A DNA stretch of 63,973 nucleotides, counting the filler, from Candidatus Omnitrophota bacterium (GTDB taxonomy: Bacteria; Omnitrophota; Gorgyraeia; Gygaellales; Profunditerraquicolaceae): assembly GCA_041653035.1 (NCBI GenBank). It is 4 parts of 4 records of this genome, joined end to end, with 100 filler letters (N's around TTAATTAATTAA, not from the genome) between each part and the next. Parts side by side here need not be neighbours in the genome. Positions count along the whole stretch, not along the records: positions 1 to 20,632 come from JBAZGE010000035.1; 3 more parts are not named here. One strand, written 5' to 3'. Positions 9,001-15,000 of the stretch are shown here, piece by piece; within the stretch, counting starts at the first letter, position 1, and every line of letters begins with the position of its first letter. Position numbers: made by a program.

Positions 9001-12000
9001 AAACATTGGCGAACGGTATACTCAGATCAGCCTTGTTCCGGCAACCGCGGCTCCGAGGATCGATGCCCAGATTGACGGTGCCGATGTAGGTGCGGGTACC
9101 GCGGGTAACGTGCGTTATACGGCGGCTCCTATCTTTGTGAGGTCTTTGATTTCACGCGATGGCCCCACGAGCTAAGTCTTGTTCCCTGTAGTTCTATCTC
9201 CTAAAAAAGCGATCCCTCTCTTGAAAAAGGGGGATTGTTTTTTTATTATGAAATGAAGCTCCGCGGGCTAAAGCCCGCGGTTTCTGGAGCGAAGTATAAA
9301 TCCACAGATGATTATTGATATAAAGCAACTGGGTAAGAATTTCGGGAAATTCAAGGCCCTTGAAGCCGTAGAGTTCGGGATTGATAAAGGAGAGATATTC
9401 GGTATATTGGGCTTGAATGGCGCGGGAAAAACCACCCTCATCCGCTGCCTGGTGCGTTTTCTTAGGCCGGAAAAGGGCGGTATTTATTTCAACGGTAACA
9501 CGCTCACCGACAACGATATTCACCGGTATTTCGGTTATCTCCCCGAAGATTTTCAGCCTCCGCTTAATCTGACCGCTTTTGAATTCCTTGATTTTCTAAG
9601 ATCTTCACAAAGATCAACGATTTCCGTTGAGTCTTGCCTGGAGTGGGTGGGCCTTTCTCAGGACAGGAAAAAGAGGATCCATGCCTATTCCCGGGGCATG
9701 ATACAGCGTTTAGGCCTGGCATTGGCGCTTATTAAAGGCCCGCAGGTGCTTGTTCTCGATGAGCCTATCCTGGGGTTGGACCTTGCCGGCCAGCGGCAGA
9801 TATTCAGCCTTTTAAAGGCGCTCAATCAGCAGGGGAAAACGATCATTCTTTCCACCCATATTTTTCCGCATATAGAGAATTTTTGCCACCGGGTTGGTAT
9901 TATTCATAAAGGTACCCTGAGGTTTACCGGGAAAGTGGGAGAGTTGTTGTCCCGGCAGAAAGCGGGTTCTCTTGAGGAGGCTTTTTTGAAAGAGGCCGGT
10001 TTGAGCAGTGACGGCAGGAATGGCGGGGGGGATGGGCATGAAGAATAAATTTATTCCTTTTGTCCTGCTTAATTTTTTCGAAGGAGTCCGGGAAAAGATA
10101 TTCTGGGGGGTGGTTTTTTTTTCCCTGTTCTTGTTAGGGTTAAGTTTCTTCCTGAGTATGCTCTCGGTCGGGGAAAGCGCGCGGGTTTTGCGGGGAGCGG
10201 GCCTTTCGGCCATGGAACTGGGCGGAATAGTGCTTCTGGTGTTCAGCTTTACCTCCGGGTTTTACCGCGATAGGAACGGCCGTATCCTGGAGGTGTATCT
10301 TTCCTGCGTGCCCCGCTCTGTTTATACCGCATCGAAAGTGTGCGCGTATCTTTTGATCGCTTTTTTTTACCTCATCCTTGCCGGCGTATTCTGGGCGGGG
10401 ATACTGGCGGTAAACGGCGCATTCTTCTGGCAGTTTTGGGCGGGGTTGTTCAGTATCTTCCTGAAATTATCGATTGTTATCTTTTTGAACCTCGTGTTTT
10501 GTTGTTTGTTTTCCTCCCCGGTGCTTGCCATATTGAGTACGTTGTTTTTGTATGCCTGCGGAGAAATCGTTTCCGAAGCGGCGCGGCTGTCCACCGTGTA
10601 TGTCAAGGGTGAGTTTTCTGCCACGGTGCTTTCCGTGTTAAAATATATCCTGCCTAACTTGGATAAATTAGACCTGAAATCCCAATTGTTATACGCGCAG
10701 GTTCCCGCGGCCGGTTATCTGGGGTTGATTTCGCTCTATACCCTGTTGTATTGCCTGTTCCTCTGGTCGCTGGGTACCTGGATTTTTGCCAAGAAGAAAT
10801 GAAAAAGATCAGAATGGCCATGGCGGTGTTGGTTTTATTCCTGGGGATTTTGTATCTGTCATACAGCCTGCAGAAAACATCCTTTCCGGAAAAATCAACC
10901 CCTTTTTTTTATGTCCCGCCCTTTCGGTATATCAATACCATCGCCGGGAGTTTCCGTACCGTATGCGCGGATATTTTTTATATCCGCGCTGTCCTGTCGG
11001 CGGCGGAACCCGGGAAAGGATTCCTTGAATATACCCTTGATAACCTGCGGCTGGCGACTTCTCTGGATCCGCGTATGACCTCCGCGTACCTGATCGGGGG
11101 GCTTGTGGCTCCGCGCGGCAAAGCGGATATTCCGCTGTGTATCCAGTTCCTCAAAGAGAGCATGGAACGCCGCCCCGAGGAATGGAAGATCCCGTTTTGG
11201 ATAGCTTTTAATTATTACCAGCTCGAAGATTATCAGAGCGCGGCCGAATTTTGTGAAAAAGCCTTCAGTCTGCCCAAGGCCCCCGGGTATCTCAAAGGCT
11301 GGATCACGTTTTCTTATTATCAATCCGGCCGGGCGGAGATGGGTGTTAAGTTTCTCGAAGGGATGCGTGAGTCGGTTACCGATCAGGCTTTGCTTAAGCA
11401 GATAGACAGGAAACTGGAATGGCTTAAGAATATCGTGTTCTTAGAGGGAAAGGTGAGAGATTTCGAACAGGCATATGGACGGCTGCCGCGCGATCTTGAA
11501 GAATTGGCCTCTCGCGGGATGATTCAATCCATCCCCCCGGATCCCTTCGGCCAGGGGTATTATCTTGATCAACGCTGGATCGGGCAGAAATATGAGGGCA
11601 GGGTACGAAGTAAACTTCCTTAGGAGTGTTTGCTTTTCTCCGTCGAAAGATGCCCGATATTTTTTTGTCCTTTATATGATGAGCGAGGAAAGAAAATGAA
11701 GAAGGGGTTTCCCCCGTTAGAGAAAGCCGCCGATTTTAGCCGGTGGTTTACCGATTTCTATGCTGTCGGTGGTTTAATCCTCTCCGCAAAATCCCCGGTC
11801 TTCAGACCGGGGATAGGAATCTGCGGAATGTGTTTTTTTGCTTCGGGGAGGGAGCCTTGGCCTTTAGGCCGAGGGGCTCCACTGCCACCGTCAACGAAAA
11901 CCGTTAGAGGACAAAGTTCTCTAACGGGGTTTACCCTGATAGAACTTATTGTGGTTATCGCGATTATAGCTGTTTTATCGGCAATTATCGCTCCCAGTGC

Positions 12001-15000
12001 TTTTCGCGCGATCGGGAAGGCCAAAGCCGCCCGCGCTCTCGAAGATGTAAAGTCGATCAAGACTGCGGCAATCGCTTTCTATTCCGACGCCGGCCTCTGG
12101 CCGGGCAGTCAATGGGGTACTATGCCCGGAGATCCCTATTCTCCCGCGGTCTATGGAGAGGGGTTTGTGACTCCGCCGATAGTTCACAGCGGCACCGCCG
12201 CGGAGATAGCGCAGGCGCAGAGAGGGCTTTCTTCCTGGGACGGCCCGTATTTGGAAAAATGGGCTGATACTCCCTGGGGAATGCCGTATATGTGGGATTA
12301 TAACAACTGGGATGCCAGCGGAGACGGCGTTAGTAACGAGCATATCGTTTGGCTGGATCTGGAGCATTCCGGAGTGCCGGCTGATCCCAATACGAAAGTC
12401 CCTGCCTCTGCGCGGGATTCGATCGACCGGCAGTTAGATGGAGCGGACGGTTTGCACCGCGGGATGGTGCAAATGAACGGGACAGAGACATCTCTGATGG
12501 TGATCGTGGTGCAGGGGTATTAGATAACGGTTCACCGATAAGAGGCAATGGAGCAGTGACTTTAATCCCCTCCGCAAAATCCCGGTCTTCAGGCCGGGGA
12601 TAGGAATCTGCGGAATGTGTTTTTTGCTTCGGGGAGGGAGCCTTGGCCTTCAGGCCGAGGGGTTCCACTTGTGGGATTACCGGGAGGATAAGATTATGAA
12701 ACAACGGGCGTTTACCCCGTTAGAGAAAACCACCGGCTTTAGCCGGTGGTATACCGATTTCTATGCTGACGGTGGTTTAATGCCACCGTCAGCGAAAACC
12801 GTTAGAGGACAAAGTTCTCTAACGGGGTTTACCCTTATGGAAATAATTGTGGTTATCGCGGTCATCGGGGTTTTGTCCGCGATTATCGCGCCCAACGCTT
12901 TTAAGGCGATACGCAAGGCGCAGGTTGTCCGAACATTGCAGAGTTTTAAAAATATAAAACAAGCCACGCTTTCCTATTATGTGGATACCGGCACTTGGGT
13001 GGCGGATCATTATATTTTAGACGCCACCGGCCCTTTTTTTAGAGATCCGGGAGTCGTGGGATGGGATGGCCCTTATTTGGAAAACTATCAAAGAAGCCCT
13101 TTTGTCTCTCCGGGATTGCCTGTCGGCAGTCATCCGGGCTGGTACTATGTCTTGGCGGATTCTCAGGAGTATAATAGTACGTTCGATTTGGACGGCGACG
13201 GGAATTTTGAGATTAATGACGGGATTAGTGTGTGTTGTTATGGTTTTCCGGCCGAGGACGCCTACCGGCTGGATGAGATCATAGACGGTACCAGTCAGTG
13301 GGGATATCACGGGATAATGAATGTGATCAGGATATTTGGGACTTCTCCCACAGAGTCATATTATCTTGTTTCCATGTTTATCGGACAGAACGGGATTCCG
13401 AGGCCGGATCGGTCATGATGGTTTTCCGTAAAATCGATAGGCAAAAATAGCTTGAGAACGGGCTTGATTAGAAGTATACTAAAGTATAATTATAGAGCGG
13501 GGAATTTTCTTGAGATGAATATGGCCTATAGAGAGGGCTAAGAGAGATACGTATGCCGAATTACAGTTACCGGGCGCGCGATAACGCGGGAAAAGAGGTT
13601 AAGGGGATCCTTAACGCTCAGAATGAAGTGGATTTGGGAAATCAGCTTAATAAGATGGGTTGTTTCCTTATTTCCTGTAAAGATGGCCCTGTGGTCGCGG
13701 GAAAAATGCCGGTTGTCGCCAGGCAGCTTTTACGCCTGAGCCCCGAAGACGTGCTTAATTTTGCTACCCAGCTGGCCATTTCTATTGACGCTGGTATTCC
13801 GCTTTTAACCGCTTTGCACGACCTTGCAAAAGGGAATCCTAATAAAAAATTAACGATCCTGATGGAGGACCTTTCCAAAAAGGTGGAATCAGGTGTTTCT
13901 TTTCGAGAAGCTTTGAGCGCGCACCCGCAGATCTTTTCAAAATTATTCCTGTCTCTCGTGGGCGCGGGAGAAAGCACCGGGAAATTGGCGTTTGTTTTGA
14001 ATGACCTGGCCAAGCTGTTGGAATGGCAGCTGGAAATACAGGCTAAGATCAAAGAAGCTTCCATCTATCCTATTATGCTTTTTGTGGTTATGGTCGGGGT
14101 GGTGTCCGTGCTGGTCGGGGTGGTCATCCCGAAATTCGAGCCTATGTTCGTTGAACTGGGGGTGGCTTTGCCTCTTCCCACGCAGATAGTCATGGGGGTA
14201 AGCCAGGTTTTCCGGAAATTCTGGTGGATGCTGGTTGTTGTGGGGGGCGGGACAGTGCTAGGTTTGAGGATCTACGGTAATACCGAAAATGGCGGGTACG
14301 TGTTGGATAAACTTAAATTAAAATTGCCGATCTTCGGATCTTTGCTGGTAAAGATTTCTCTTTCCCGGTTTTGCCATACGTTTTCGCTTTCCCTGCGTTC
14401 GGGGGTGGCGGTTTTTAACGCTATGGGCCTTGCCTCCGAGGTCATGGGGAATAAGTATTTCGAGAAGTCCATAAAAAGAGCGCAGGATCTCGTGAATGCG
14501 GGGGAGCGGATATCCACGGCCCTGGATAATTCCGGGCAGTTCCCTTCGTTGGTCATCCGTATGATCAGCGTCGGGGAACAGACCGGAGCTTTGAGCGAGG
14601 TTATGGAAAAGGTGAACAATTCCTACGATAAAGAGGTCCCCGCGACTATTAAAAAAATATTCGCGTTGTTTGAACCGGTCATGATCATAACGATGGGCGT
14701 GGTGGTCGGCGGAATAGCGATTTCCGTGTTCCTCCCGCTCATTTCCATTGTCGGTAAAATAGGCGGGGATTAATCCCCGCCGCAAAATCACCGGCCTTCA
14801 GGCAGGTGACCCGCTAAACTATGGGCCCAAATAAATTCCTCGGTATCGATATCGGAAACGCACAAACTAAAGTTGTGCTTCTGAAATCATCCATAAAACA
14901 AGGCGGCGTCGAAAGTTTTATCTTTCCCACCCCTTTTGAGACTGCTCAGAATTCCATCCGTAGAATAGATGCCAAGGTATTCGTGGATGAGCTTATCAAA

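What a model noticed while it worked through the whole genome (the two positions that open the first line are those of the whole stretch)
11696..13418. Palindromic element parked in prepilin leader peptides
A 113-bp or ~218-bp palindromic element (CCCCGTTAGAG...CTCTAACGGGG) inserts at TTTA inside the G/A-F-T prepilin cleavage motif, duplicates TTTA and stays in frame. Its right end supplies a new Gly-Phe-Thr site, so the inserted 39-74 residues lie in the leader that prepilin peptidase would remove. It occupies g01263, g01264, g00660 (C12) and g01385 (C42) here and the same niche in several phyla.
Evidence so far: 28 paired copies in the genome; 4 of 27 prepilin-like sites carry it in frame against 5,327 TTTAC sites genome-wide. 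Orthologs of g01264 and g00660 in the sister species have the empty site with a single TTTA. A GTDB scan found 23 loci whose records are labelled Omnitrophota, Patescibacteria, Nitrospirae, Auribacterota and Planctomycetota; about 20 read FTPLE...SLT|GFTL open in frame.
(Added by a program. Inside this text positions count along the whole contig: they may not be those of the stretch shown here. "Call 12" and the like, gene names such as g00115 and contig names such as C1 are that model's own, and its searches are not shown. The text may have been shortened before it was handed on; [...] marks where a part breaks off. The agent that wrote the report below was given it as the finding of a first reader that could run no searches.)

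Follow-up and report, generated by a model that had tools for sequence, protein, structure and literature searches.

The report
Nuclease mini-transposon hiding in pilin leaders
Tiny hairpin-shaped mobile DNA elements, gene-less relatives of a roughly 277-base element whose only gene is a small DNA-cutting enzyme, sit in frame at the cleavage site of pilus-subunit genes and rebuild that site with their own end, so the cell's pilin-trimming protease would likely cut the added residues off and leave the pilin intact.

Summary
Confirmed and extended. Window 11712-11929 (218 bp: a 113-bp element plus a nested, unrelated 105-bp element) and 12715-12827 are true insertions. Orthologs of g01264 and of the C12 pilin lack exactly 117 bp and carry one TTTA. 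Five (not four) of 12 TTTA-bearing prepilin junctions are occupied, against at most 18 of 820 non-coding TTTAC sites. In a GTDB scan that did not select for pilins, 20 of 123 element ends lay at prepilin junctions. In-gene copies stay open (6 of 6) while non-coding ones mostly carry stops (6 of 7). A candidate mobiliser emerged: full-length 268-293-bp elements with the same ends encode only an 86-residue GIY-YIG nuclease that ends in Gly and has no stop codon of its own. The stop usually comes from the flank; in 41 of 82 longer homologues the nuclease instead runs into a prepilin. Cleavage of the long leaders and mobilisation by the nuclease are inferred, not shown. Some prepilin copies elsewhere are out of frame and likely restart internally. 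Tolerance plus retention fits better than targeting. Eight paper searches found no description. This scan saw the same family and niche before on other DNA.

The parts
11696..12523 (+). Prepilin-like gene g01263, 275 aa, with a 78-residue leader of which 74 residues come from the insertion
   Evidence: Translation; Pfam N_methyl at residues 78-98 and T2SSG
11712..11929 (+). Element A (113 bp, 14-bp terminal inverted repeats) with nested element B, 218 bp in all, in frame; left flank TTTC (11708-11711), right flank TTTA (11930-11933); last three bases encode Gly(-1)
11779..11883 (+). Element B, 105 bp, inserted 3' of TTAAT without duplication, two subterminal hairpins; PATE-like (IS200/IS605-type); one base longer than the modal 104 bp, which keeps the frame
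   Evidence: PATE definition from PMC3119063 passages
12567..12669 (+). Free intergenic copy of element B, 103 bp
12696..13418 (+). Prepilin-like gene g01264, 240 aa, 44-residue leader; the G001:C7 ortholog (73% identical mature part) has a short leader and no element
12711..12831 (+). Element A, 113 bp (12715-12827), between two TTTA copies (12711-12714, 12828-12831); 39 added codons; Gly(-1) at 12825-12827
8471..8583 (+). Intergenic copy of element A between TTTA copies, upstream of a pilin gene; carries a stop codon in the frame that is open in the in-gene copies
8639..9175 (+). Prepilin with an unoccupied G|F-T junction (internal control)
3583..14773 (+). Type IV filament gene cluster that holds the pilins: secretin 3583-4878, extension ATPase 6542-8215, platform protein 13553-14773
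   Evidence: Pfam Secretin, T2SSE with MshEN, T2SSF

Best explanation
The elements are gene-less, mobile derivatives of a roughly 277-bp element whose only gene is an 86-residue GIY-YIG nuclease, which likely moves them; they insert at TTTA with a 4-bp duplication and sit in frame at the prepilin G|F-T codons, where their G-rich right end rebuilds the cleavage site so that prepilin peptidase would likely remove the added residues. Shown: insertion (empty orthologs), duplication, fixed orientation at the target, shared ends with nuclease-bearing elements, open frame in gene-resident copies, strong excess at prepilin junctions, and full-length elements fused in frame to prepilins with the nuclease's last residue as Gly(-1). 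Inferred: (a) the nuclease cuts at the hairpin ends and at the target, and host repair completes the insertion; (b) the peptidase cleaves 44-110-residue leaders, which for full-length copies would release a nuclease with the same C-terminus that a flank-supplied stop codon gives; (c) the excess comes from tolerance plus a ratchet: once the element's end supplies Gly(-1) it cannot be lost except by precise or in-frame deletion, and copies spread locally in pilin clusters, whereas intergenic copies decay or are deleted.
For: Empty sites of 117, 117 and 54 bp. 5 of 12 prepilin TTTAC junctions against at most 18 of 820 non-coding TTTAC sites, odds ratio 32, p 7e-6; counted as 3 events p 0.003. Unselected scan: 20 of 123 sites, 20 of 83 TTTAC sites, at prepilin junctions; no flank preference beyond TTTA(C/T) in the other copies. 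Frame: 6 of 6 in-gene 113-class copies open against 1 of 7 non-coding, p 0.005; nested element 105 bp in 2 of 2 prepilin copies, by different extra bases, against 4 of 24 elsewhere, p 0.046; 14 of 18 prepilin copies in frame and open against 33 of 84 others, p 0.004. A copy in G001:C22 with 22 differences and a damaged right repeat is still open with G|FTL, and a neighbouring leader consists of a right end only. Full-length form: 72 of 78 nuclease loci have both ends, 268-293 bp (one 336), exact 4-bp duplication in 25 of 72 against 7.5 shuffled, seven different 4-mers, stop codon from the flank in 51 of 72. Fusions: 41 prepilin, 10 PilX-like, 15 Sec/TM-like, 16 other among 82 longer homologues; 40 of 41 keep the GIY-YIG residues, 36 distinct partners, Gly(-1) is the nuclease's last residue in 35 of 41. 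Prepilin peptidase is encoded in this genome and in G159, which holds a 284-bp nuclease element in a prepilin. Peptidase cleaves after Gly or Ala on the cytoplasmic side and leader length varies (PMC10191384, PMC4471445 passages).
Against: No biochemical or expression data. Described leaders are 6-26 residues, about 15-30 in type IVb; these are 44-110. 11 of 25 two-ended prepilin copies in other genomes of the phylum are out of frame or stopped, and the 113-bp element holds an in-frame internal ATG that would give a 16-residue leader. 36 of 72 full-length copies show no duplication of 3 or 4 matching bases. This genome has no two-ended full-length element; its nuclease (C50) has an element end only at its 3' side. 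Only 2 of 75 metagenomic full-length copies are prepilin fusions; the 82-protein set was selected for length. No prepilin peptidase was detected in G041, the small incomplete genome with three fusions, or in G001 (71% complete). An open frame in one decayed copy is weak alone (41% expected by chance). Non-coding sites were called with a crude ORF rule and need not be neutral.
Confidence: 0.6

Rival explanations
1. The element actively targets prepilin genes, for example through an extended target, transcription-exposed single strands, or homing-like copying between pilin paralogs that share the conserved N-terminal coding sequence.
For: Occupancy is 15-40 times that of non-coding sites, more than plain tolerance predicts. 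Near-identical copies occur in several pilin genes of one cluster (three in G041:C27, three in one Jorgensenbacteria record, seven junction hits in G121).
Against: No flank preference beyond TTTA(C/T) in 84-103 non-prepilin copies. Most copies are elsewhere, and in-frame copies occur in a Sec signal and other genes. Prepilin copies are not closer to each other than to intergenic copies (4-13 against 3-13 differences within the subfamily). Non-coding copies near pilins are not significantly in excess (2 of 14, p 0.11).
Confidence: 0.15
2. The long leader is not made or not processed: the pilin is translated from an ATG inside the element with a normal-length leader, or the occupied genes are damaged, dispensable paralogs.
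For: 10 of 11 out-of-frame or stopped prepilin copies have an internal in-frame Met, often followed by a basic tail like the nuclease C-terminus. The 113-bp element has an in-frame ATG 16 codons before the junction. Pilins are many here (35 motif sites).
Against: The stop seen in two intergenic copies lies upstream of the internal ATG and is absent from all in-gene copies. Element B destroys that ATG in the 218-bp copies, and both carry a frame-keeping extra base. In the folding model the internal ATG region is more paired (0.30 unpaired) than the native start (0.57). Downstream pilin frames are intact.
Confidence: 0.15
3. An ordinary transposase acting in trans (DDE or HUH/Y1) moves the elements, and the GIY-YIG gene is a passenger or an addiction or homing helper.
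For: Terminal inverted repeats with a 4-bp duplication are typical of DDE chemistry (established knowledge). The genome has six Y1 transposase-like genes. GIY-YIG domains are not known to join strands (recalled).
Against: No transposase was found between these ends: none in this genome, no element end next to the Y1 genes in the stretches checked, and of 24 one-ended scan loci only one had a recognised transposase (IS66) upstream, not bracketed by the ends (three ORFs were scanned against Pfam, the rest judged by eye). The nuclease is the only ORF in the full-length form, is conserved, and other nuclease clades pair with other inverted repeats. Directional insertion of 31-44-bp copies is unusual for DDE systems (recalled).
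Confidence: 0.1

Closest known systems
Rickettsia palindromic elements (RPE; as summarised in PMC10969869, passages seen)
   Same: Short palindromic repeats of about 100-150 bp inserted in frame in protein genes and translated.
   Different: RPEs sit in unrelated metabolic genes and the added peptide stays in the protein; no cleavage-site niche and no nuclease-bearing full-length form appear in the passages seen.
Ssn nucleases with NTS/SRM hairpins (cd10448; Chenal et al. 2025, PMC11893778; abstract, first part of Results, section 10 and Discussion seen)
   Same: Single-domain GIY-YIG gene of under 100 residues flanked by hairpin repeats, many gene-less repeats elsewhere, directional; the authors liken the layout to an insertion sequence.
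   Different: [quoted passage not shown]
Bacterial MITEs (Correia, ERIC and others; PMC10969869 and PMC3119063 passages)
   Same: Terminal inverted repeats, target duplication, no coding capacity in the short forms.
   Different: The autonomous partner found carries a GIY-YIG nuclease, not a transposase; insertion is one-directional; copies are as short as 29-44 bp.
Non-intron GIY-YIG insertion sequences in CPR rRNA genes (PMC11270868, passages seen)
   Same: GIY-YIG-encoding insertions in Patescibacteria that are not introns and do not spread like homing endonucleases.
   Different: Described only in rRNA genes, with no mention of inverted repeats or pilins in the text searched; whether they belong to this family was not tested.
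Inteins and self-splicing introns (recalled)
   Same: A selfish nuclease gene made harmless inside a host gene at a conserved site.
   Different: No splicing domain or intron fold; removal would rely on a host protease that already cuts there.

Membership tests
MITE | Terminal inverted repeats | tested here: met
   14-bp arms in the window; 13-14-bp perfect repeats in 62 of 72 full-length copies
MITE | Target-site duplication and empty alleles | tested here: met
   117-, 117- and 54-bp gaps against orthologs; 25 of 72 exact duplications against 7.5 shuffled
MITE | Ends shared with a transposase-encoding insertion sequence | tested here: not met
   The only gene found between these ends is a GIY-YIG nuclease; elements longer than 700 bp could be missed outside this genome
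Rickettsia palindromic elements | Palindromic repeat inserted in frame with an open reading frame | tested here: met
Rickettsia palindromic elements | Sequence homology to RPE-1 to RPE-10 | not tested
   No RPE sequence was fetched; an Rfam scan of window 8300-13500 gave nothing near a gathering score
Ssn nucleases (cd10448) | Single GIY-YIG domain with intact catalytic residues | tested here: met
   Pfam PF01541; G18, R26, H30, E62 invariant and Y3, Y5, Y16 in 90% or more of 45 sequences; model pLDDT 89.6 with nearest folds HIGLE Z 7.5, Slx1 Z 7.0, I-TevI Z 6.0
Ssn nucleases (cd10448) | Membership of the Ssn clade | tested here: not met
   32-37% identity to three NTS-linked GIY-YIG proteins against 41% to a UPF0213-like protein; separated by starred branches. 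The three are stand-ins taken from viral contigs, not SsnA itself; the CDD profile was not available and the bootstrap had not settled
Ssn nucleases (cd10448) | Site-specific cleavage of single-stranded DNA beside the hairpin | not testable with these tools
   Needs purified protein
Class III (prepilin) signal peptide | Gly or Ala at -1, Glu5, about 21 hydrophobic residues | tested here: met
Class III (prepilin) signal peptide | Short hydrophilic leader (6-26 residues in PMC4471445) | tested here: not met
   44 and 78 residues from the native starts; net positive, no long hydrophobic segment (maximum 15-residue hydropathy 0.14 and 1.53)
Class III (prepilin) signal peptide | Cleavage by prepilin peptidase | not testable with these tools
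   Peptidase gene present at G000:C3:45486; cleavage not assayable
PATE (element B only) | Subterminal palindromes, no terminal repeats, fixed 5' target, no duplication | tested here: met
   26 complete copies, all selected on a preceding AAT, nearly all TTAAT, with unrelated right flanks; definition in PMC3119063

The most novel reading that the evidence does not exclude
A new class of self-contained mobile element, about 277 bp, in which a lone GIY-YIG nuclease is the transposition enzyme and has no stop codon of its own: it borrows a stop from its target, or borrows the host's prepilin peptidase, which cuts the nuclease-pilin precursor after the nuclease's last Gly and so both frees active nuclease and restores a normal pilin. 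The nuclease's basic C-terminal tail doubles as a class III leader, and deletion remnants become the permanent leaders of pilin genes.
Probability: 0.4. Interest if true: 0.92.

Novelty: new variant of a known kind. Interest (0 to 1): 0.78.

Why it matters
If the nuclease moves these elements, it adds a transposition chemistry outside the DDE, HUH, serine and tyrosine classes, in an element under 300 bp. It gives a directly testable system for the link between single-domain GIY-YIG genes and palindromic repeats that was raised for Ssn. If prepilin peptidase removes leaders of 44-110 residues, including a folded nuclease, then selfish DNA can be harmless by using a host protease instead of splicing, the accepted range of class III leader lengths widens, and many pilins in Omnitrophota and Patescibacteria now annotated as GIY-YIG or endonuclease proteins are mis-annotated.

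Tried and rejected
Viral contigs: no match to the right end. Rfam: nothing near a gathering score. Y1 transposases: six genes, no element end found beside them in the stretches checked. Sequencing runs: no RNA holder listed; laying contigs of four runs on window 8000-13600 and on the C12 locus showed no joint that skips an element exactly, which says nothing about excision because contigs drop rare variants. The C75 in-frame copy had no homologue spanning the site, and C42 homologues were too distant (27-35%) for a base-level empty-site test. A single-sequence model of a nuclease-pilin fusion was poor (pLDDT 58) and its Foldseek search gave no match at E 0.001, with UPF0213 and Slx1 on top. 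The ESM Atlas gave only generic GIY-YIG clusters. My first idea that the short elements inherit their open frame from the nuclease ORF is not supported: the terminal repeats are open in two of three frames on either strand, and which strand of the 113-bp element matches the nuclease strand is not settled. This genome's nuclease reads through its element end in a different frame from the SLTG frame. No complex prediction was run, since an enzyme with its substrate is rarely informative there.
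Full report
Observation. The first 20,632 bases of the window are contig C35 of genome G000 and hold a type IV filament cluster with secretin, extension ATPase and platform genes. Two tandem prepilin-like genes, 11696-12523 and 12696-13418, carry insertions at the cleavage codons: 11712-11929 (218 bp) and 12715-12827 (113 bp), each bounded by CCCCGTTAGAG and CTCTAACGGGG and followed by TTTA. From the native starts the leaders are 78 and 44 residues and end in SLTG|FTL. A third copy, 8471-8583, is intergenic. The 218-bp form is the 113-bp element (A) with an unrelated 105-bp element (B) inserted after TTAAT; B has 26 complete copies in the genome and fits the PATE description in PMC3119063 (passages).

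It is an insertion. Against G001 (same genus), g01264 and the C12 pilin each show a 117-bp gap, and the C12 ortholog has one TTTA in near-identical flanks. A 50-bp copy in a lipoprotein gene shows a 54-bp gap against G025 and duplicates CAAG. In both pilins the codon before the left TTTA is Ala, so the element's end supplies a new Gly(-1). The duplication is exact in 3 of the 5 prepilin copies. Insertion is directional: the GAGAAAGCC-type end follows TTTA in 15 of 22 cases, by my count of the list, and never TAAA.

Excess at prepilin junctions. The 23 two-ended GAG-class copies split into 5 prepilin, 1 Sec signal peptide, 3 other in-gene and 14 non-coding or at gene ends. Counting all 18 non-prepilin copies against 820 non-coding TTTAC sites gives an odds ratio of 32 (p 7e-6); counting the prepilin copies as three events gives p 0.003. 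Coding and non-coding were called with a simple ORF rule. The scan stopped after 6 of 64 parts with 122 loci; 20 of 123 distinct sites, and 20 of the 83 followed by TTTAC, are prepilin junctions, from 14 genomes by my hand count. This stays significant with one site per genome and an assumed 5% share of sites (p 3e-5). Non-prepilin copies show no flank preference beyond TTTA(C/T). A junction pattern hit 19 of 301 genomes of the phylum, at 37 sites; some of these genomes appear also, so the two samples are not independent.

The frame is under selection. In the 113-bp class all 6 in-gene copies are open in the host frame, while 6 of 7 non-coding copies carry a stop or a shift there (p 0.005). 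Element B is 104 bp in 15 of 26 copies, but 105 bp in both prepilin-resident composites, through different extra bases, against 4 of 24 elsewhere (p 0.046). In the unselected scan 14 of 18 two-ended prepilin copies are in frame and open against 33 of 84 others (p 0.004). Old copies persist: one in G001:C22 has 22 differences and a damaged right repeat but keeps G|FTL, and a neighbouring leader is made of a right end only; an open frame after 22 random changes is expected 41% of the time, so that copy alone is weak. Against a simple reading: of 27 non-own sites examined out of 32, 14 were in frame and open, 10 out of frame, 1 stopped and 2 had no left end; 10 of the 11 non-open ones have an in-frame internal Met. 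So reinitiation is a likely second route.

The full-length form. Earlier notes of this scan pointed to GIY-YIG genes, and I tested that lead. Locus L058 holds a 275-bp element with the same ends enclosing an 86-residue GIY-YIG ORF, in frame in a prepilin leader; that contig has three such copies. A metagenome scan with this protein returned 80 loci, which gave 75 distinct matches; with the three above, 72 of 78 have both ends. They are 268-293 bp (one 336), have perfect repeats of 13-14 bp in 62, and show exact 4-bp duplications of seven different sequences in 25 against 7.5 in shuffles (0 of 10,000). Eleven match at 3 of 4 bases and 36 show no duplication. The ORF usually ends in Gly (69 of 75) at the element's last base, and the stop comes from the flank in 51 of 72. 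The opposite strand is closed in all three frames in 75 of 75. Only 2 of the 75 metagenomic copies are prepilin fusions and 2 are fused to Sec-type signals. A search for longer homologues gave 82 proteins: 41 prepilin fusions, 10 PilX-like, 15 with an N-terminal hydrophobic segment and 16 others. Of the 41, 40 keep the GIY-YIG residues, they involve 36 distinct partners, and in 35 Gly(-1) is the nuclease's last residue. One such fusion, with an exact TTTA duplication, is in a genome of the same class that encodes prepilin peptidase. No peptidase was detected in G041 or G001, both incomplete. G000 has a peptidase and a related intact nuclease at C50 whose 3' end runs into an element end but which has no left end; it is a candidate trans-acting enzyme only.

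The nuclease. Pfam GIY-YIG; nearest solved sequences are UPF0213 proteins. A confident model (pLDDT 89.6) is closest to HIGLE (Z 7.5, rmsd 3.0, 83 aligned), Slx1 (7.0) and I-TevI (6.0), all under Z 8. In a rough tree the element nucleases form one clade with pilin fusions scattered through it, apart from three NTS-linked Ssn-like proteins. Other nuclease clades in relatives pair with other inverted repeats.

Mechanism. Most likely the nuclease cuts at the hairpin ends and at a TTTA/TAAA-type target and host repair completes insertion (inferred). In a prepilin gene the target overlaps F+1 and T+2, the terminal G run yields Gly(-1), and the peptidase, which cuts after Gly or Ala on the cytoplasmic side (PMC10191384 and PMC4471445, passages), would remove the extension (inferred). 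The excess over non-coding sites is more than tolerance alone predicts; I attribute it to retention and local spread, with active targeting as the main rival.

Literature and prior notes. Eight full-text searches combining prepilin, leader peptide, palindromic element, GIY-YIG, inverted repeats, target duplication, Patescibacteria or CPR and Omnitrophota found no description. I saw listings only for most hits and passages of PMC9881135 (unrelated), PMC11270868 and PMC10969869; subscription journals are not covered and no supplement was read. Earlier AI notes of this scan report the same family, the prepilin niche and the nuclease-pilin fusion on other DNA; they gave leads and are not independent support.

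Verdict. Real, widespread and not found in print. It works like an RPE or MITE placed in a disposable leader, but its autonomous form carries a GIY-YIG nuclease outside the Ssn clade. I file it as a new variant of a known kind, interest 0.78; it would be a new class if the nuclease is shown to move the element and the peptidase to release it.

Noticed in passing
window 11779-11883 and 12567-12669; G000:C94:213-641 (L001): Element B, a 104-105-bp PATE-like repeat with 26 complete copies that nests inside element A at least four times; an intact IS200-type transposase gene with hairpin ends sits on C94. The link between them is untested.
   Followed up: partly
L260, L261, L267, L270, L271, L276, L280 (relatives): Other single-domain GIY-YIG genes enclosed by different 11-16-bp inverted repeats about 285-330 bp apart, suggesting several sister families.
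   Followed up: partly
L180, L217, L238, L239, L246-L248, L250, L251: Many full-length copies sit on ATGAA and end in A followed by TGAA, so the element's last base and the duplication rebuild an ATG start codon.
   Followed up: no
G010:C27 (L013, L020, L039) and G030:C34 (L019): Prepilin leaders lengthened by unrelated short tandem-type repeats, suggesting that leaders are a general sink for repeats.
   Followed up: no
G000:C23:6124-6231, C34:3216, C2:11286, C50:4160-4208: 49-52-bp GAAA-class hairpins with the same outer ends but no clear duplication, some in tandem; one abuts tRNA-Pro next to the GIY-YIG gene.
   Followed up: partly
window 8231-8298: A separate long-armed hairpin after the ATPase gene that is highly repeated in the laid runs.
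   Followed up: no
G000:C5:45016-45729: A 113-bp copy in frame in the N-terminal region of a likely Sec signal peptide; full-length nucleases are likewise fused ahead of Sec-type signals of LamG/TafC-like proteins.
   Followed up: partly
P0010, P0011, P0034, P0054, P0058-P0060, P0064, P0067: PilX-like fusions in which a second element end, read in another frame, supplies the Gly before the hydrophobic segment.
   Followed up: no
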